A DNA stretch of 64,000 bases from Nitrosopumilus sp. (lineage in GTDB: Archaea > Thermoproteota > Nitrososphaeria > Nitrososphaerales > Nitrosopumilaceae), in NCBI GenBank assembly GCA_965218695.1, contig OZ244651.1, positions 800,001-864,000 on the forward strand, in the 5' to 3' direction. This document shows positions 22,831 to 29,988 of this stretch, piece after piece. The notes beneath the pieces are model-generated. The model worked only from the letters and a program-made list of their open reading frames with translations. It did not search any database and was not told where the DNA came from. Both the position numbers and the translations under genes were made by a program. Position 1 is the first letter of the stretch; each line of letters begins with the position of its first letter.

Positions 22831-24130
22831 TGCATAGTCGGGGACATAATGTTTCGCTAATTTGACGGTGCGGATTTGTGAGCAAACAACCGAAAAACTT
22901 TGATCCTAGGACATATTGAAAATTGGCATGATATTTTCAAAGGCGCTGTGCAGGAAAGACAGGCTGCCCAAGGGCAACGAATTCCTGCAGGATACAAACC
23001 AAGATGAGATCCTCCGGATGATTAACCAGACGCCGTCCGGCAAGGCGCGGGACATATTGGTTGCATGCCACAAGAGAAAAGCCGGGATGAGCCTGCACGC
23101 CATATCGAGTGCGATGATGAAGCCGTATTCCACCATACGCGGCTGGCTGGTAAGGGTCACCAGGCGCGGGCTGGCAGGCAGGTTTGACAAAAAGTCTACC
23201 GGAAGAAGGAGGATGCTGGGAGAACGCTCGGTTTGGATGATAAAGGCCTGGCTCCTGGAGGCGCCGTCAAAATTCGGGTTCGAGTCCGCGTCATGGAGCA
23301 CAAGGATGCTGCTTGGTGTAATCATGGACTGGATCGGCATGGGCGCCAGCGCCCGTACGCTGCGACGGGTATTGCGCCGGCTCGGATTCTCATACACGAA
23401 ACCAAGACCCGTGCCCCGCAGGTCTGCCACGGCAGAAGAACAAAAGCGGTTCAAGGAGGAGACGACCGAGTCTATCCTAGGCATGATTTCGAGTGGACGC
23501 ACGGTACTTGCAGGAGACGAGGTCGCAGTCCAGCTGGGGGCAAGCGCCGGGTACGGGTGGAGGCCAATCGGAGGCGGCAATACGGTAGACACGGCGTTCA
23601 GCACAAAGTCATCCCGGATGTTTGGCGCGCTGTCATCTGAGAGGATCCACGTAAAGGACGTAGAGTACACAAATTCCGAGACGTTCAAGGATTTCCTGAC
23701 GGACATGCGCCAGACGTACGGGAAATTTGTCATGATCTTGGACAACGCGTCATACCACAAGACCGACACGGTCACGGATTTTGTAAATGGTACCAACGGG
23801 GACATACGGCTGATATTCCTCCCGCCGTACACCCCACAGCTCAACCCCATCGAGGTCCAGTGGAGGGTGCTCAAGAAAACACTTGCCGGGCGGCAGTTCA
23901 AAACAACAGATGAAGTCGTGGATGTCGTCAAGAGAATAATCAACTCAGGCGAGATGAAGCCGGTCAAGATGATGAAATATCTTACGCCGTAAAGGCATTC
24001 CCGGAAATTCTTGCAACAAACTTAGTCAGATTACATCCCTGTACCCTGCCAACTTGGTATAATTCTAAGATGGGCGGTAGCTACAGTCTGGACGGGAAAA
24101 AGAGCGAAACATTATGTCCCCGACTATGCA
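22831..24130 (+). mobile_element. IS630-family element
   Basis: Perfect 28-bp IR TGCATAGTCGGGGACATAATGTTTCGCT (22831-22858 / 24103-24130); its outer bases include the TA target. Confidence 0.92.
22916..23992 (+). CDS. IS630 transposase
   Basis: LGFSYTKPRP, AGDE, ILDNASYH and LPPYTPQLNPIEVQW motifs. Confidence 0.93.
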   Translation: MKIGMIFSKALCRKDRLPKGNEFLQDTNQDEILRMINQTPSGKARDILVACHKRKAGMSLHAISSAMMKPYSTIRGWLVRVTRRGLAGRFDKKSTGRRRMLGERSVWMIKAWLLEAPSKFGFESASWSTRMLLGVIMDWIGMGASARTLRRVLRRLGFSYTKPRPVPRRSATAEEQKRFKEETTESILGMISSGRTVLAGDEVAVQLGASAGYGWRPIGGGNTVDTAFSTKSSRMFGALSSERIHVKDVEYTNSETFKDFLTDMRQTYGKFVMILDNASYHKTDTVTDFVNGTNGDIRLIFLPPYTPQLNPIEVQWRVLKKTLAGRQFKTTDEVVDVVKRIINSGEMKPVKMMKYLTP

Positions 24131-24175
24131 TATCAGTCTGCAATCAGGAGCAGATCTGGATATCACAGGGACGGA

Positions 24176-25003
24176 TCAGGGCAGGCGCAGGCCTGTCAGT
24201 CCTTCATATGCCAGGGTGTAGCGCCGTGTCATCTTTGCGACAATTTCAGGGGAAATCTCAGGTGCGACAGGCTCTGCTCCTGCGGCACGGGCATCCTCAA
24301 ACTGCTTTTGATAACCGGCTTCAGTAAGCCAGTCGCGCAGCAGCTGCTTGTCATATGCCTCCTGTATATGGCCCACCTCAAATGAGTCCTTTAGCCACAA
24401 CCGGTACTCGTCAGGGCCTATCGAGTCCCCAAGGGTGATACGGCCGTCAAGGATCCCAAACTCCAGTTTCAGATCAGCCAGTATGAATCCTGCATCATCT
24501 GCAATCCGGGCCATCTTCTGATAAATTCCGACTGATACCTGCTCAAGGGTGTCATACTGCTCAGGGCTTACCAGGTTCCTTTGGATTGCACCCTCCCTGT
24601 CAACAGGAACATCATGCTCTGATTTTGTGGTGGGGTCAAAGACGGGTACCGGCAGTCTTGATGCAAGTCTGGTGTCTGCGCCGTCAGGGAGTGTCGCGGT
24701 GCCGTTCTTCCATCTGCTGACCAGACTGCCATAAAAGTATCCGCGTACCACACATTCAATTGGAAGCATGTTCATTTTTTTTACGACGATCTCGGTATCT
24801 GACTGGCGTCTTACAAAATGGTTCGGGGTCTCAAGCCTGTCAAACCAAAACTCTGCAAACCTGCACAGCACCTCCCCCTTTCTGGGGATATCCTGTCGAA
24901 ACTTTACATCATACGCAGAGACCCTGTCTGAAAACCTGAAGAGGAGCGTCTCAGCATCCACTTCATAAATGTCCTTTACCTTTCCGCTTGCAAGAAACCT
25001 CAA
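24176..25003 (-). CDS. purC: phosphoribosylaminoimidazole-succinocarboxamide synthase
   Basis: [32 protein letters not shown] and DKQLLRDWL motifs. Confidence 0.96.
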
Positions 25004-25048
25004 ACACCCCTGTTCAGTCAGGGCAGAATTTAACTGATGGTATCAAAA

Positions 25049-26376
25049 GGCTCTGTAAAGTTACGGTGACCCGCGACTTGACTGATCCGCATCGACTAAA
25101 GTATTCGAATCCGGCTTCCCGGATCTAGCCCTCGCCATCGCTTCATCTGCGGACCCGACCGGGCCGAACCACAGCCCACGTGCAAGTATGTTGTTACCTG
25201 CATTCTTGTCCCTGTCTATGGACACGTGGCAGTGTTTGCACCTGACCATCCGGTACGCTTCGGAGTTTGTCTTCCCCCCCCCCACATTCCGCGCACCTTG
25301 ATGACGTGCCTGCCGCCGATACTTTCTTGGTCGGAAGGCCGAGCCTTCTAGCCTTGTATTCAACCATGAATTGCAAAATATGATATCCCCAACTGTTCAA
25401 CTTGGTTCTGGTTTTCCTTGATGCCTTGCCGCCCTTTTTCCATCCCTCTTTCATGTCCGTCAAATCCTCCATGACGATTCCCGGGTTCCGCGAGATGATC
25501 TCGTTTGCTGCCGCGTGCATGAGGGGCGCGGTCCTGTCTTTTTCTTTCTTGCCGTATTTGCCTGCGATCTCTTTTCTTATCCTGTGGTCGTTGCGCGTAA
25601 GATGGCCCACCTTCTCCCTGCATTTGGTGCGGACATGCCTGACTTTGGCCATGCCGGTCACTTTGACGTTACATTGGTTGTCGTACGTGGTGATGTTGTC
25701 CAAATTCAGATCCATTCCGAGCCATCCATCGGGAACCGTTTGTTCAACGGTCTCCGAGTATGGCACGATCAGCCTGTCCTTGGTCAGCGTGATGCCGCCG
25801 AGTTTTTTGCCTTGGATCTTTTCTAGCACGTACGGGGCAAGCCTGATTCGGACATGATTCCCCAACATCATGGGGATTTCAATGAAACCGTCAATGATCT
25901 TGTAGTTCTGATTGTTTATCTTGAGCAATTCCTTTCTGACGTACGGCCGCGTAATCTTTTTGGGCTTTTTGACGGATTGGTTCTTGCGGTTTTTGGGCTT
26001 GGCCTTCCTTGCGGCCTTGCGAAGCACGGTGCGCCAGGACTTCAGCAGTGACGTGCCGGCCTTGATTGCCTCCTGCGTGTGTGTGGCATAGTGTCCTTCC
26101 CGCCTCAATTCGGGATACGCGAGTTCCTGGAACTTTTTGGTTGACGTTATGTTGTGTAGCATTCCGAGCCTGATGGCCTCGTTGGTGTCGTGCCTGAAAT
26201 TCTCAAACGTTTCCTTGATCTCGTCGTGCTTGTCGTGGAACTGCCAGATGCATTCAGTATGTGTCACAGATCATGTGGCCGTTCGCGGCTTTTAAGGGCG
26301 GCAGAGCTCACGACATCCGCATGTGTCCGTGATCGTGCGCTGGTATGGGATTGGGTCCCTGTAACTTTACAGTTCC
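25049..26376 (-). mobile_element. non-autonomous TIR-bounded element carrying tnpB
   Basis: 24-bp imperfect TIR GGCTCTGTAAAGTTACGGTGACCC / GGAACTGTAAAGTTACAGGGACCC (20/24 identical); 8-bp direct repeat TATCAAAA (25041-25048, 26377-26384). Confidence 0.8.
25061..26267 (-). CDS. tnpB: TnpB RNA-guided endonuclease (IS200/IS605-type), frameshifted at a G10 tract
   Basis: RuvC-I LGMDLN, RuvC-II VMEDL, zinc finger TSSRCAECG / CKHC and RuvC-III DRDKNAGNNI. The C-terminal part is in another frame; removing one base from the C10 run at 25274-25283 gives 401 aa. Confidence 0.88.
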
Positions 26377-26490
26377 TATCAAAAGTAAACGGGGTGTCGG
26401 ACAAACCTTGGATTCAGGATGTTTAGTCTTGCCGGACTGCCCTAAGGAAAGTGCCGAGTAGTTCTGCCACATCGTGTACCGGATGTTGAT

Positions 26491-26733
26491 TTACCAGCGA
26501 TTTTTCAGGTTCCGGCGATAGGTGTATGTGGCATTGTTGCCCCTCACCACGAGGAGCCTGCATACTTTGCAGTTGGAGCACTCCTCGTAAATCTTGTAGT
26601 CGTCGCCGCTCAGGGCAAACCAGCCCGGATTGGACTTTTTGCCCACCCTGCACCGCGTCCACGCGTGATCCTTCTTGGGACAGTCAGGGCAGTCCGACGT
26701 CCATTTGTCTGGCGGCATGTCAGTCATTGGCAT
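26491..26733 (-). CDS. small Cys-rich hypothetical protein (possible zinc ribbon)
   Basis: 80 aa with CPDC and CSNC motifs. Confidence 0.5.
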   Translation of the reverse strand: MPMTDMPPDKWTSDCPDCPKKDHAWTRCRVGKKSNPGWFALSGDDYKIYEECSNCKVCRLLVVRGNNATYTYRRNLKNRW

Positions 26734-26811: not shown

Positions 26812-29800
26812 CTAGGGGTGAATGATACCGGCGACGGGAAAGAAGGGAGGTCGGATGCTGATTATCTGCACATTCTCGTCGACCCAGCTTGTAGCCAGCG
26901 CGTAAGGAGAACCGTCGACAACGACGGTTGCGACAGAGATTGCCCTTTTGAGTTCGTCGGAAACTTTTCCATCATACACAATCGCAACCTGCCGGGGCGA
27001 GCGGGGATCGAATATGTCAATTATCTGGACGCCGTGATCGAGGATGGACGCGACTAGAACGTAGGCAGCGTCGCTAGTCGTAATGGCTGCAACAGACATA
27101 GCCCCGGCGAGTTTGCGAAAAGATATTCCGTCAGTCATGGATGCGGCCGGTTCCGGGGAGTGAGGATCAGATATGTCTATAATCTGGACGCCGTGATCGA
27201 GGATGGACGCGACTATCGCGTACGTGGAGTTGCCAATCACGGCAGAATCTATCGAGATTGCCCCGGCTAGCCTGTCAAAGAGGATTCCGTCTGACACGGA
27301 TGCGGTAGGCTCGGGAGAATGTGGGTCGGATATGTCGATTATCTGGACGCCGTTGTCTGCAACCGACGCGACCAGCGCGTACGTGGAGTCGCCAATCACG
27401 GCAGTAGTTATGGACCGTGCCCCGCCAAGCCTGTCAAAACCGGCCTCATCTGTAACAGTGTCGTCCCGTATGGATGCGACAGGCACAGGAGAATGTGGGT
27501 CGGATATGTCGATTATCTGGATTCCGTCGTCATTCCAGCCTGCGGCCAGCGCGTACGTGGAGTCGCCAACCCGAACGGTTGCCACGGAGATGGTCCCGTC
27601 CAGTTCGTCAAAGACTTTATCATCTGTCCCGTCAAAGACTTCCCCGTCGCGCACGAATGCGACCGGCTCGGGTATTGCAGGATCAGACATATCGATTATC
27701 CACATGCCATTATCCGTAATAGACGCGACCAGCGCGTACGTGGAACCGGCAATCACGGCAGTGGACATGGAGGTCACCCCAGTCAGGCCGTCAAGCATAT
27801 TCTTGCCGTACACGGGAACTACCGGCACGGGAGAGGCAGGGTCAGATATGTCAATGACTCTGATGCCCAGGTCTGCCACCGACGCGATCAGCGCGTACGT
27901 GGAATTGCCAACCCGGGCGGTTGTCACGGAATTTGTCTCGGCCATTCTGTCAAAGACTGTTTTGTCAGATATTGAACCCACCGGTCTCGGATAGTATGGA
28001 TTGAATATGTTGATTATCTGGATTTCGTCGTCAATCCAGCTGCCGGCTAGCACGTAGGATCTGCCGTTGAACCATGTGGTGACAACGGAGGTTGTACCGG
28101 CAAGCCCGTCAAAGACGGCCCCGTCAAACATGGATGCGGCCAGTTCTGGGGAATGGGGGTCTGACAGGCGGATGATTTGTGCCCCGCTGTCTCCAACCGA
28201 CGCTACCACCGCATAAGGCGCGGTATGAATTTGGATAGTGTCTATCGACACCACGCCGGCAAGCCTGTCAAAGACGTCTCCGTCAGACATGGATGCAACC
28301 GGCCGGGGATCTTTGGGTTTTGTGAGGTCGATTATCTGGACTCCGTTGTCTGCAAATGATGCGACCAGTGCGTAGGGCGTATTGTAAATCACGGCAGTGG
28401 TTATCGACACCGCGCCGGCCAGCTCGTCAAAGCCGCCTAGTCCGTCGGATGCAGACGATATGGATATGGGATTTCCAGGGTTGGTGATGTCGATTATCTG
28501 GACGCCGTCGTCTGCCCAGCTTGCGACCAGCGCGTAATGGGAGTCGTCGATGGTGATCGTGGTAATTGATGCTGCGCCGGCTAGCTTGTCAAACGGCTCT
28601 CCGTCAGATATTGATGCGACCGGAGCTGGATCTGTGGGATCTGTGATGTCGATTATCTGGACGCCGTCGTCTGCCCAGCTTGCGACCAGCGCGTAATGGG
28701 AGTCGTCGATGGTGATCGTGGTAATTGATGCTGCGCCGGCTAGCTTGTCAAACGGCTCTCCGTCAGATATTGATGCGACCGGAGCTGGATCTGTGGGATC
28801 TGTGATGTCGATTATCTGGACGCCGTCGTCTGCCCAGCTTGCGACCAGCGCGTAATGGGAGTCGTCGATGGTGATTGTGGCAATAGAGTTTGCCCCGGAG
28901 AGCTCGTCAAAGTCCGCCCCGTCTGATATGGATGCGACCGGCACCGGATTGTGGGGGTTTGATATGTCAGATATCCGTACTTCGTTGTTGGTAACTGATG
29001 CTGTCAGGGAGTAGGTGGACTCACCAATTGAAACCGTCGTCATGGAATTTGCCCCCACTAGTTTGTCAAAAGATATTTTGTCATGCAGTGATGCGGCCGG
29101 TGCGGGATCTGTGGGATCAGTAATGTCGATTATCTGGATGCCATCGTCAATCCAGCTTGCAGTCAGCGCGTATGGGTGGCCGGTAATTCGAACTGCTGCC
29201 ACAGACATCACCCCGGAGAGCTCGTCAAAGTCCTCCCCGTCTGATATGGATGCGGCAGGTACCGGATTGTGGGGATCGGATATGTCGATTATCTGCACGC
29301 CGCTGTCGGCAACGGATGCTACCAGGGCGTAAGGCGTCTTGTCGATCCAGATAGTGGTAATGGAGTTTGCCCCGGAGAGCTCGTCAAAGTCCTCCCCGTC
29401 TGATATGGATGCGGCAGGTACCGGATTGTGGGGATCGGATATGTCGATTATCTGCACGCCGTTGTCGGCAACGGATGCTACCAGGGCGTAAGGCGTCTTG
29501 TCGATCCAGATAGTGGTAATGGAGTTTGCCCCGGAGAGCTCGTCAAAGTCCTCCCCGTCTGATATGGATGCGGCCGGCACGGGGAAGGCAGGGTCGGATA
29601 TGTCGATTATCTGCACGCCGCTGTCGGCAACGGATGCTACCAGGGCGTAGAGGGAATCGCGGATTTGGACGGTTGTGATTGAACGCGCCCCTGCAAGTTC
29701 GTCAAAGGTAGCCACAATGGGCACGTGGTCAAACCTATCACCGCCGGTGATATTCCATTTGCCACGTTCGTCAAAAACCATTCCATCAGACACGGACGCG

Positions 29801-29988
29801 ACCGACTTGGGGGAGGCAGGATCTGTTATGTTGATTATCTGGATGCCATTATCTGCAACGGACGCGACCAGCGCGTAAAGGGAGCCGTCAAGCCAGGCAG
29901 TTGTGATAGATATTGCCCCGTCAAGCCTGTCAAATTCCCTCCCGTCGGATATGGACGCTACCGGCTTGGGGGAGACAGGGCGGGACAT
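26812..29988 (-). repeat. about 19-20 tandem LVIVD-like coding repeats (159-nt period), some nucleotide-identical
   Basis: GACGCCGTCGTCTGCCCAGC recurs at 28501, 28660 and 28819; a second near-identical block lies at about 29210-29650. Confidence 0.9.

What the first reader, a model, noticed from the sequence alone, without database searches (positions are those of the whole stretch)
25041..26384. TnpB nuclease packaged inside IS6-like terminal inverted repeats with an 8-bp target duplication
Seen: a tnpB gene with RuvC D/E/D residues and a zinc finger fills a 1328-bp segment bounded by 24-bp inverted repeats (GGCTCTGTAAAGTTACGGTGACCC vs GGAACTGTAAAGTTACAGGGACCC, 20/24) and an exact flanking duplication, TATCAAAA. 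There is no TnpA or other transposase inside, and the tnpB stop codon (25061-63) lies within the TIR. Established: IS200/IS605 (HUH) and IS607 (serine recombinase) elements, the usual TnpB hosts, have no TIRs and make no TSD. GG.(A/T)CTGT ends with 8-bp TSDs are typical of IS6-family DDE elements. Inference: TnpB has been captured by a non-autonomous DDE-mobilised element that moves in trans, a prokaryotic parallel to the association of Fanzors with diverse TIR transposons.
Basis: partly seen in the sequence, partly recalled or inferred. Interest (0 to 1): 0.85.

Follow-up and report, generated by a model that had tools for sequence, protein, structure and literature searches.

The report
TnpB inside IS6-like inverted repeats
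A small mobile element in an ammonia-oxidising archaeon carries the RNA-guided nuclease gene tnpB between the kind of inverted ends used by IS6-type cut-and-join transposases, and it has clearly jumped, although the copy in this window is now broken.

Summary
Window 25049-26376 is a 1328-bp element with 24-bp inverted ends (20/24) and an exact 8-bp duplication. One correction: its tnpB is split by a +4 frameshift in a C10 run.

It is a real transposon insertion. Two more full copies in the genome have the same ends and different 8-bp duplications. All three sites are empty, with one target copy, in the closest relative G002. G002 also holds a 144-bp miniature derivative.

The genome has no Y1 or serine TnpA, IS1595 or ISL3. 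The IS66 genes I first suspected are nested insertions.

Ends 20/24 identical belong to an IS6-like transposase element in a congener and to a decayed IS6-like remnant in this genome. No transposase lies inside or beside any TnpB copy examined.

TnpB is under purifying selection (dN/dS 0.20), and the catalytic D/E/D is invariant in the clade.

TnpB in DDE transposons with inverted ends, and solo copies moved in trans, is already published for other families (PMC10691335). IS6 was not named in the texts I could read. Verdict: new variant of a known kind.

The parts
25041..25048 (.). Left copy of the 8-bp target-site duplication (TATCAAAA)
   Evidence: Relative G002 has a single copy (TGTCAAAA) at the uninterrupted site.
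25049..25072 (-). Terminal inverted repeat at the tnpB 3' side (right end in tnpB orientation). It contains the tnpB stop codon at 25061-25063.
   Evidence: It is near-identical in copies B, C, D and E. GG at positions 1-2 and G at position 7, as in the IS6/IS26 consensus (PMC6807381, passages read).
25049..25225 (-). Putative omega-RNA scaffold region overlapping the tnpB 3' end (inferred, not shown)
   Evidence: The equivalent 177 nt of copy B folds at -66 kcal/mol, z = -3.41 against 200 shuffles. One hairpin shows compensatory changes in 6 of 13 sequences. Synonymous divergence between A and B falls from 0.59 to 0.05 at the 3' end. There is no Rfam match.
25061..25363 (-). C-terminal fragment of tnpB (100-aa ORF: second CxxC pair and RuvC-III motif)
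   Evidence: (PF07282, 21.3 bits, below the cut-off on its own) and the alignment.
25274..25283 (.). C10 homopolymer holding 4 extra bases relative to copies B and C. This is the frameshift site.
   Evidence: Not verifiable from public contigs.
25194..26267 (-). N-terminal fragment of tnpB (357-aa ORF: RuvC-I, RuvC-II, first CxxC pair)
   Evidence: PF07282, 30.2 bits. It is 82% identical to intact copy B over 338 residues.
26353..26376 (-). Terminal inverted repeat at the tnpB 5' side (left end in tnpB orientation)
   Evidence: It is 20/24 identical to the ends of the IS6-like element L040 1952-5306 and of the remnant at G000:C1:269926-270685.
26377..26384 (.). Right copy of the 8-bp target-site duplication (TATCAAAA)
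26385..26387 (-). TAC immediately 5' of the left-end duplication in tnpB orientation. Candidate target-adjacent motif (inferred, post hoc).
   Evidence: TAY occupies this place in 7 of 14 elements and in 0 of 14 at the mirrored place on the right end. Background is 3.1%.

Best explanation
Window 25049-26376 is one copy of a non-autonomous, IS6-like transposon that carries tnpB and, probably, its omega RNA as its only cargo. This copy is now decaying.

Shown:
- The element has terminal inverted repeats of the IS6 type and no transposase.
- It inserted with an 8-bp target duplication, the signature of a DDE transposase making staggered cuts.
- Sister copies inserted elsewhere in the same way after this lineage split from its closest relative.

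Inferred: the transposase acts in trans. It belongs to the IS6-like clade that is widespread in this archaeal family. These are proteins of 374-391 aa with an N-terminal SWIM/zinc-ribbon extension, whose elements bear the same kind of ends. In this genome the closest-matching autonomous element survives only as a 760-bp remnant, so the copies here are probably no longer mobile.

Inferred for TnpB: it is a working RNA-guided nuclease in the intact copies. Its guide RNA is transcribed across the right end into the flank, so it starts with the duplicated 8 bp. It could then recognise the unoccupied site (a T-A-Y-like motif, then the 8-bp target, then the flank) but not the occupied junctions. That would favour copying of the element into empty alleles.
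For: Transposition is shown.
- Copies B (C1:765674-767011) and C (C1:917932-919267) are 84.7% and 84.0% identical to the window copy from first to last base.
- Duplications: TATCAAAA (A), CTTGCATG 8/8 (B), and for C two copies each 7/8 to the single target in G002.
- All 3 of 3 sites are uninterrupted in G002, with one target copy and flanks 90-94% identical.
- G002 holds a 144-bp miniature made of the two ends, with a 7/8 duplication.
- A fourth element, C1:2386415-2390994, has TnpB 44% identical, the same type of ends and TGAATTAT 8/8.

Other transposases are excluded in this genome (99.99% complete). Pfam searches gave 0 matches each for Y1_Tnp, Resolvase, IS1595 and ISL3.

The IS6-like link rests on these points.
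- Ends have GG at 1-2 and G at 7, vary at positions 3-4, and give 8-bp duplications. These are the features of the IS6/IS26 consensus (PMC6807381 passages; PMC7986276 passages).
- Element L040 1952-5306 in congener G053 encodes an IS6-like transposase and has ends 22/24 alike and a 7/8 duplication. The transposase scores PF13610 47.6 bits (cut-off 27) and NF033587 109 bits over the whole model. Its ends are 20/24 identical to this element's left end, inner part included.
- The remnant at C1:269926-270685 has 20/24-identical ends and keeps the C-terminal 62 residues of such a transposase.
- A metagenomic TnpB element (L140) carries the inner end motif typical of the IS6-like elements.
- The 24-nt end pattern was found in 9 of 101 congeneric genomes. 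The reversed control was found in 0 of 101.

The lineage is old.
- TnpB relatives occur in 62 of 401 genomes of the family.
- 11 of 47 TnpB rows examined passed a strict automatic test for such ends plus a duplication of at least 7/8.
- 6 of 7 close metagenomic relatives have ends of this type.

TnpB looks functional.
- NF040570 scores 120.8 bits, above its cut-off of 100.
- D193, E274 and D359 are invariant in 12 of 12 clade proteins.
- dN/dS between A and B is 0.196 over 283 codons.
Against: - No element with an IS6-like transposase and TnpB inside one pair of ends was found. None of 30 TnpB loci has such a transposase within 1.5 kb. None of 30 IS6-like loci has a TnpB. None of 7 metagenomic loci has one within 6 kb.
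- The only intact IS6-like transposases in this genome have less similar ends. Element Z has 13/24 by my count. The 404-aa family has a different inner sequence.
- Two of the three transposases tested score below NCBIfam's IS6 cut-off (116 and 109 against 125). [quoted passage not shown]
- A near-perfect 22/24 match that I first credited to an IS6-like element in G087 is a separate solo end lying 35 bp outside that element.
- The window copy's tnpB is frameshifted, and copy C has decayed ends.
- The omega RNA is not demonstrated. Only one short hairpin covaries, and gene conversion could also explain the conserved 3' end.
- The T-A-Y motif was chosen after seeing the data, comes from related elements, and is absent in 7 of 14.
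Confidence: 0.78

Rival explanations
1. The element is moved in trans by a DDE transposase of another family that also makes 8-bp duplications, such as the very abundant IS66-family elements or the IS5-family element of this genome. On this reading the likeness to IS6-like ends is superficial.
For: The genome holds 124 matches to the IS66 transposase domain. The 1641-bp IS66 element makes 8-bp duplications, and its ends share about 10 of the first 14 bases with the TnpB element by my reading. IS66 genes lie inside two elements with GGTTCTGT-type ends. An IS5-family transposase sits in cis with a different TnpB in this genome and gives an 8/8 duplication.
Against: The IS66 and IS110 genes inside C1:2386415-2390994 and C1:2255829-2260054 are nested multi-copy insertions with their own ends and duplications. 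IS66 ends start GTA, not GG. The IS5-type element has unrelated ends, and its TnpB is only 25% identical over 134 residues. Only IS6-like elements give 20/24 matches that include the inner part of the repeat.
Confidence: 0.08
2. It is an ordinary IS200/IS605 or IS607-type solo TnpB element (IS1341 group). The inverted ends and flanking repeat would be coincidental.
For: TnpB-only elements are common and are usually filed under IS200/IS605 (PMC3627910, passages read). NCBIfam gives weak matches to the IS200 and IS607 TnpB models (57 and 35 bits).
Against: Three independent copies have 8-bp duplications and single-target empty sites. The same architecture recurs in other genera and in metagenomes. 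No Y1 or serine recombinase domain is found in the genome. IS200/IS605 and IS607 elements have no inverted ends and make no duplications (PMC13565253 and PMC6188088 abstract).
Confidence: 0.01
3. The element is IS6-like and moved in trans, but TnpB is only a passenger with no role in the element's spread. It would be one of several cargo genes such elements pick up, and here it is decaying.
For: IS6-like elements of this clade are 2.5-3.4 kb long and carry other cargo, such as an N6/N4 DNA methyltransferase in L040. The window copy is frameshifted. IS6-family elements are thought to move by copy-in cointegrate formation without excision (PMC7986276, PMC8477213 abstract), so the restorative role proposed for TnpB after excision would not apply. 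No strict flank motif is shared by all 14 sites.
Against: The association persists across TnpB divergence down to about 31-45% identity. dN/dS is 0.196 and the catalytic triad is invariant. The gene always abuts the same end, with its stop in or near the repeat. There is an orientation-specific bias next to the left-end duplication: T at -3 in 11 of 14, against 5 of 14 at the mirrored place.
Confidence: 0.2

Closest known systems
DDE-transposase-associated TnpB branches (Altae-Tran et al. 2023, PMC10691335; section 9 and passages read)
   Same: TnpB lies inside transposons with inverted terminal repeats. The TnpB 3' end is close to a transposon end. Solo TnpB copies are bounded by the same ends and thought to be moved in trans.
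   Different: The text I could read names only IS630. A 2026 review (PMC13565253, passages) lists ISL2, IS630 and IS1031 from that work. Here only solo forms were found. The partner family is thought to be replicative. Duplications and empty sites are documented copy by copy.
IS6/IS26 family insertion sequences and their miniature derivatives (PMC7986276, PMC6807381; passages read)
   Same: Ends have GG at 1-2 and G at 7 and vary at positions 3-4. The first 8 bases match the published consensus. Duplications are 8 bp. Miniature derivatives exist.
   Different: No transposase lies inside. The related transposases are 374-391 aa with an N-terminal zinc-finger extension, against 213-254 aa for typical members. 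Their elements are 2.5-3.4 kb with cargo, whereas the review records one family member with a passenger gene. The inverted repeat is about 24 bp rather than 14. Thaumarchaeal members are not mentioned in the passages read.
IS200/IS605 IS1341-group TnpB-only elements
   Same: A single tnpB gene of about 400 codons, probably with its guide RNA at the 3' end, and no transposase gene.
   Different: Those elements have subterminal hairpins, no inverted ends and no duplication, and depend on a Y1 TnpA. This element has inverted ends and 8-bp duplications, and the genome has no Y1 TnpA.
Fanzor nucleases in eukaryotic inverted-repeat transposons (PMC3627910; PMC13565253 passages)
   Same: A TnpB-type nuclease is carried as cargo in transposons that make target duplications. 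The duplication necessarily lies between the transposon end and the guide or motif region.
   Different: This case is prokaryotic, the protein is TnpB-sized, and the transposon family is different. For Fanzor1 the review says the 5' duplication is part of the recognised motif and the 3' duplication part of the RNA scaffold. Here the bias lies just outside the duplication, and nothing has been tested.

Membership tests
TnpB (RNA-guided nuclease family) | Profile match above the curated cut-off | tested here: met
   Copy B scores 120.8 bits on NF040570 (cut-off 100) and 57.4 bits on PF07282. The window copy matches only in two pieces, 30.2 and 21.3 bits.
TnpB (RNA-guided nuclease family) | RuvC D-E-D triad and CxxC...CxxC zinc finger | tested here: met
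   D193, E274, D359 and the cysteines are invariant or nearly so in 12 of 12 clade proteins. The alignment to solved TnpB/Cas12f chains covers the RuvC-II to RuvC-III region. In the window copy the residues are encoded but split by the frameshift.
TnpB (RNA-guided nuclease family) | Omega RNA overlapping the 3' end and running into the flank | tested here: inconclusive
   Fold z = -3.41. One covarying hairpin. A drop in dS at the 3' end. No Rfam match. No usable RNA reads.
TnpB (RNA-guided nuclease family) | Guided DNA cleavage next to a target-adjacent motif | not testable with these tools
   Only a post hoc flank bias is available: TAY in 7 of 14.
IS6/IS26 family (as an element) | Inverted ends with GG at 1-2 and G at 7 | tested here: met
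   compared with the consensus quoted in PMC6807381.
IS6/IS26 family (as an element) | 8-bp target-site duplication | tested here: met
   Copies A, B and C and four or more further elements.
IS6/IS26 family (as an element) | Encodes an IS6-family DDE transposase | tested here: not met
   There is no transposase ORF in the element and none within 1.5 kb of 30 TnpB loci. At most it is a non-autonomous derivative.
IS6/IS26 family (as an element) | A transposase-bearing element with matching ends exists, and its transposase is IS6-family | tested here: inconclusive
   L040 has ends 20/24 identical. Its transposase passes PF13610 (47.6 against 27) but scores 109 bits on NF033587 against a cut-off of 125. 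The G087 protein scores 128.4 and element Z 116. IS6 is the best-scoring family by a wide margin.
IS6/IS26 family (as an element) | Movement by cointegrate formation | not testable with these tools
   Only simple insertions are seen. They fit either resolved cointegrates or cut-and-paste.
IS200/IS605 (IS1341 group) | No inverted ends, no duplication, hairpin ends, Y1 TnpA in cis or trans | tested here: not met
   Inverted ends and duplications are present. PF01797 gave 0 matches in the genome.
IS607 | Serine recombinase TnpA, no inverted ends, no duplication | tested here: not met
   PF00239 gave 0 matches in the genome. Inverted ends and duplications are present.

The most novel reading that the evidence does not exclude
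In this lineage TnpB has adapted to a duplication-making, possibly non-excising IS6-like transposon. Its guide starts with the 8-bp duplication, and its recognition motif (T-A-Y-like) lies just outside the duplication on the left side. The nuclease would then cut only unoccupied alleles and drive copying of a transposase-less element into them. This would be a homing drive that does not depend on scarless excision. The TnpB-carrying hitch-hiker would be the persistent form and the IS6-like transposase merely a helper.
Probability: 0.25. Interest if true: 0.75.

Novelty: new variant of a known kind. Interest (0 to 1): 0.55.

Why it matters
TnpB's proposed role, restoring a transposon after scarless excision, was worked out for IS200/IS605 and IS607. 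A recent review (PMC13565253, passages) treats the rarity of TnpB in DDE transposons as something to be explained.

This case gives a clean, copy-by-copy documented example in archaea. Inverted ends, 8-bp duplications and empty sites are all present, and the partner is an IS6-like family thought to move without excision. The target duplication sits between the transposon end and the guide.

That makes two questions directly testable. Can an IS6-like transposase mobilise a TnpB cargo in trans? How does a TnpB define its motif and guide when a duplication intervenes? The second is the problem that eukaryotic Fanzors face.

It also widens the picture of IS6-like elements, which here are long, cargo-carrying and widespread in ammonia-oxidising archaea. 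The basic concept is already published for other DDE families, so this is an extension and not a new principle.

Tried and rejected
IS66 as the partner. C1:2386415-2390994 holds an IS66-family transposase, a DDE_Tnp_4 transposase and a TnpB between ends with an 8/8 duplication. It looked like an autonomous IS66+TnpB element. BLAST against the genome showed that both transposase genes belong to multi-copy insertion sequences nested in a TnpB-only element. The same holds for C1:2255829-2260054. The IS66 ends start GTA. Rejected.

G087 match. I first read the 22/24 end in L039 as the right end of an IS6-like element. One search showed that element's own end 35 bp further in, so the 22/24 sequence is a separate solo end. 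I withdrew it as evidence and re-checked L040 for the same problem. L040 passed.

Rfam: no match at E up to 1 in 24900-26500.

The search for related loci on genome contigs with one protein returned a single irrelevant locus.

Sequencing runs. The contigs that cover the element switch between paralogous copies. None spans the C10 run in the window's form, so the frameshift could be neither confirmed nor refuted. One RNA-library contig (X9) continues from the purC flank into sequence resembling the far flank, like an empty site in a relative. Another holds a D/E-type end fragment. Neither shows transcription.

Consensus RNA fold of 13 right-end regions gave only 5 pairs. I did not build a covariance model.

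Automatic end-finding passed 11 of 47 TnpB rows. In the other 36 it picked spurious pairs, or the ends were shifted in register, nested, decayed or not found. I did not curate these by hand.

For the flank statistic I used the 11 rows plus C, X and the G002 miniature. I left out L057 (duplication 8/8 but left end only 13/20), L046 (duplication 5/8) and L065 (no duplication).

A brute-force Python scan for inverted repeats timed out. It was replaced by the repeat finder.

Supplementary files of PMC10691335 (Additional Files 10 and 11, Tables S1 and S2) could not be seen. They may show whether one of its DDE branches is this clade.
Full report
WHAT IS THERE

The window is G000:C1:800001-864000. 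Between 25049 and 26376 lies a 1328-bp segment.
- It is flanked by TATCAAAA on both sides, at 25041-25048 and 26377-26384.
- The only long reading frames are on the minus strand and match the TnpB TNB/zinc-ribbon domain, PF07282.
- The gene is in two pieces: 25194-26267 (357 aa) and 25061-25363 (100 aa).
- Alignment with two sister copies shows why. The window copy has 4 extra bases in a homopolymer (C10 at 25274-25283), between the two CxxC pairs of the zinc finger.
- The element sits about 40 bp upstream of a gene whose product reads like SAICAR synthetase (purC, 24176-25003, minus strand). I did not test that name.

IT IS A TRANSPOSON THAT HAS JUMPED

BLASTN of the element against its own genome gave two more full-length copies, aligned from base 1 to base 1328. 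Copy B is C1:765674-767011 (84.7%) and copy C is C1:917932-919267 (84.0%). Two 183-nt fragments of the tnpB-side end also turned up.
- Copy B is flanked by CTTGCATG on both sides.
- Copy C has a 2-bp deletion in one repeat and imperfect flanks.
- In the closest relative G002, the flanks of all three copies are contiguous. Flank identity is 90-94%, and the two flank matches overlap by 7-9 bases in G002.
- The G002 junctions show a single TGTCAAAA for A, a single CTTGCATG for B and a single CCTTTCCA for C. Each of C's two flanking copies matches that last sequence at 7 of 8.
- So 3 of 3 copies have 8-bp duplications and clean empty sites.
- G002 also has a 144-bp miniature made of the two ends, with a 7/8 duplication.
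- A genome-wide scan for GG..CTG-type inverted pairs found 116 pairs, of which 5 had 8/8 identical flanks. Three are TnpB elements (A, B and C1:2386415-2390994). One is an IS6-like element. One is a palindrome inside an inverted duplication.

WHICH TRANSPOSASE

The genome is 99.99% complete in 9 contigs. It has no match to the Y1 transposase domain, the serine-recombinase domain, IS1595 or ISL3. It is crowded with insertion sequences, including 124 matches to the IS66 transposase domain.

I first thought that C1:2386415-2390994 was an autonomous IS66+TnpB element. It has ends of the same type, TGAATTAT 8/8, and holds IS66 and DDE_Tnp_4 transposases and a 395-aa TnpB. BLAST showed that both transposase genes belong to multi-copy elements nested in a TnpB-only element. 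The IS66 element has its own ends starting GTA and its own 8-bp duplication. The same nesting explains C1:2255829-2260054.

Matches to the IS6 transposase domain (PF13610) led further.
- Element Z is C1:1109206-1111904. It has 24/24 inverted ends beginning GGTTCTGT and CTGTGGCA 8/8, and encodes a 374-aa transposase.
- A search of 101 congeneric genomes for the 24-nt end pattern found it in 9 genomes. The reversed control was found in none.
- In G053 the pattern bounds a complete 3355-bp element, L040 1952-5306. Its ends are 22/24 alike and its duplication is 7/8.
- That element encodes a 391-codon transposase 65% identical to Z's, plus an N6/N4 DNA methyltransferase.
- I checked that no inner pair of ends bounds the transposase alone.
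- Its ends are 20/24 identical to the window element's left end, including the inner part of the repeat.
- In this genome, a 760-bp element at C1:269926-270685 has ends 20/24 identical to the same left end. It keeps a remnant of the C-terminus of such a transposase, 57% identical over 63 residues.

These transposases match NCBIfam's IS6 model over its whole length, at 109-128 bits against a cut-off of 125. The next family scores 55-67 bits. They pass PF13610 and carry an N-terminal SWIM/zinc-ribbon extension.

The published IS6/IS26 end consensus starts with the same 8 bases. It has GG at 1-2 and G at 7, varies most at positions 3-4, and the family makes 8-bp duplications (PMC6807381 and PMC7986276, passages read). 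The same papers stress that long and archaeal members are only distant relatives of IS26. I therefore call the partner IS6-like.

One correction to my own trail. A 22/24 match in G087, which I first took for the end of an IS6-like element, is a solo end 35 bp outside that element's true end.

NO CIS PARTNER

- None of 30 TnpB loci (plus or minus 1.5 kb) holds an IS6-like transposase.
- None of 30 IS6-like loci holds a TnpB.
- None of 7 close metagenomic relatives has one within 6 kb.
- The intact IS6-like transposases in this genome have less similar ends. Z has 13/24 by my count, and the six-copy 404-aa family has a different inner sequence.
- Trans-mobilisation is therefore inferred from the ends, not observed. 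In this genome the cognate helper appears to be extinct.

HOW OLD AND HOW WIDE

- Relatives of the TnpB were found in 62 of 401 genomes of the taxonomic family, in 7 of 27 genera.
- The IS6-like transposase was found in 156 of 401 genomes, in 20 of 27 genera. Both tallies include a few unpublished genomes on which no other claim rests.
- A strict automatic test asked for ends at least 14/20 alike and a duplication of at least 7/8 enclosing the TnpB match. It passed 11 of 47 rows, in G000, G033, G202, G218, G362, G375 and G415. Several more rows show the same ends without a clean duplication.
- Six of 7 close metagenomic relatives (31-39% identity) have ends of this type. One has an 8/8 duplication, and one has the inner motif typical of the IS6-like elements.
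- One source names a relative as coming from a Thaumarchaeota/Nitrososphaerota archaeon.

TnpB ITSELF

- Copy B has a 407-codon open frame and scores 120.8 bits on NF040570, above its cut-off of 100.
- It aligns with solved TnpB/Cas12f chains across the RuvC-II, zinc-finger and RuvC-III region.
- D193, E274, D359 and the cysteines are invariant or nearly so in 12 of 12 clade proteins.
- Between A and B, dS is 0.59 and dN 0.116 over 283 codons, a ratio of 0.196.
- Over the last 59 codons dS falls to 0.05. Either an overlapping functional RNA plus the repeat, or gene conversion, could explain this.
- The last 177 nt of copy B fold with z = -3.41.
- A 13-sequence alignment supports one hairpin, with compensatory changes in 6 sequences.
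- Rfam has no match.
- The omega RNA is thus plausible but not shown.

A POSSIBLE TARGET-ADJACENT MOTIF

I compared 14 elements with defined ends, in tnpB orientation.
- The three bases just 5' of the left-end duplication are T-A-Y in 7 elements. At the mirrored place beyond the right-end duplication the count is 0.
- The background frequency in the same loci is 3.1%.
- T occupies position -3 in 11 of 14, against 5 of 14 at the mirrored place.

A symmetric transposase preference would not give this asymmetry. A TnpB motif next to a target that begins with the duplication would. At the occupied right junction that place is taken by the last bases of the repeat, so the element would not cut itself.

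The motif was chosen after seeing the data. The elements are related, and half lack it. I treat it as a lead.

COMPARISON WITH WHAT IS KNOWN

Altae-Tran et al. 2023 (PMC10691335, section 9 read in full) report the following.
- There are six TnpB branches associated with DDE transposases, all with inverted terminal repeats.
- The TnpB 3' end usually lies within 250 bp of an end.
- Solo TnpBs with near-identical ends are taken to be moved in trans.

Only IS630 is named there. A 2026 review (PMC13565253, passages) lists ISL2, IS630 and IS1031. Whole-word searches for IS6, IS26 and IS240 in the 2023 paper gave nothing. A library search for TnpB with 'IS6 family' gave 6 papers, all incidental by title and abstract. 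A search for TnpB with Thaumarchaeota and 'insertion sequence' gave none. The supplements were closed.

So the principle is known. New in what I could read are the IS6-like partner, the exclusively transposase-less form, the documented duplications and empty sites, and the flank asymmetry.

VERDICT

I put 0.78 on a non-autonomous IS6-like TnpB carrier moved in trans. The element is a new variant of a known kind. Interest is 0.55.

Noticed in passing
G000:C1:2315662-2321533 (L108 663-6534) and G000:C1:1702012-1703466 (L109): A second, unrelated TnpB/DDE association in the same genome. A 5872-bp element with its own inverted ends and AGATTATA 8/8 holds a 452-aa TnpB, only 25% identical over 134 residues to the one studied. 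It also holds an IS5-family transposase (NF033579, 167.8 bits, cut-off 140) and nested IS110-type and rve-type insertion sequences. A 1455-bp TnpB-only element with 24/24 ends of the same kind and a 7/8 duplication lies at 1702012-1703466. This resembles the published IS5-group associations.
   Followed up: partly
L080, L084, L085, L090, L091, L093, L103 (IS6-like loci in relatives): IS6-like elements often lie end to end, separated by exactly 8 bp. Their duplications resemble each other across genomes, many starting TGTTT. This suggests a strong target preference, or insertion next to an existing copy.
   Followed up: no
L040 3766-5187, and the element lengths in L078-L107: The IS6-like elements of this archaeal family are 2.5-3.4 kb long and carry cargo, for example an N6/N4 DNA methyltransferase with a restriction-endonuclease-like tail (PF01555 at 141 bits; PF22722 at 24.4 bits, below its cut-off). 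The IS6 review records a single family member with a passenger gene.
   Followed up: partly
Whole genome G000; window 22916-23992 and 24000-24133: The genome is extremely rich in insertion sequences. It has 124 matches to the IS66 transposase domain, and many families have near-identical copies nested in one another. In the window, a 358-aa ORF at 22916-23992 looks like a transposase (not tested). The 133 bases at 24000-24133 recur at 99-100% identity at four other places.
   Followed up: no
G000:C1:2255829-2260054: A roughly 940-bp transposase-less, TnpB-less element with ends of the same GGTTCTGT type hosts nested IS110-type and IS66-type insertions. Its flanks match at 5 of 8.
   Followed up: partly
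L065 1370-3414 (G074): A member of the TnpB clade sits in a 2045-bp element with the same ends. Its open frame is 656 codons. TnpB similarity falls in two blocks separated by about 250 residues, as if a domain or another sequence were inserted in the gene.
   Followed up: no
window 26812-29988 (minus strand): A 1058-aa ORF made of many near-identical repeats of about 50 residues lies just beyond the element. Related repeats occur elsewhere in the window and in relatives. It was not analysed.
   Followed up: no
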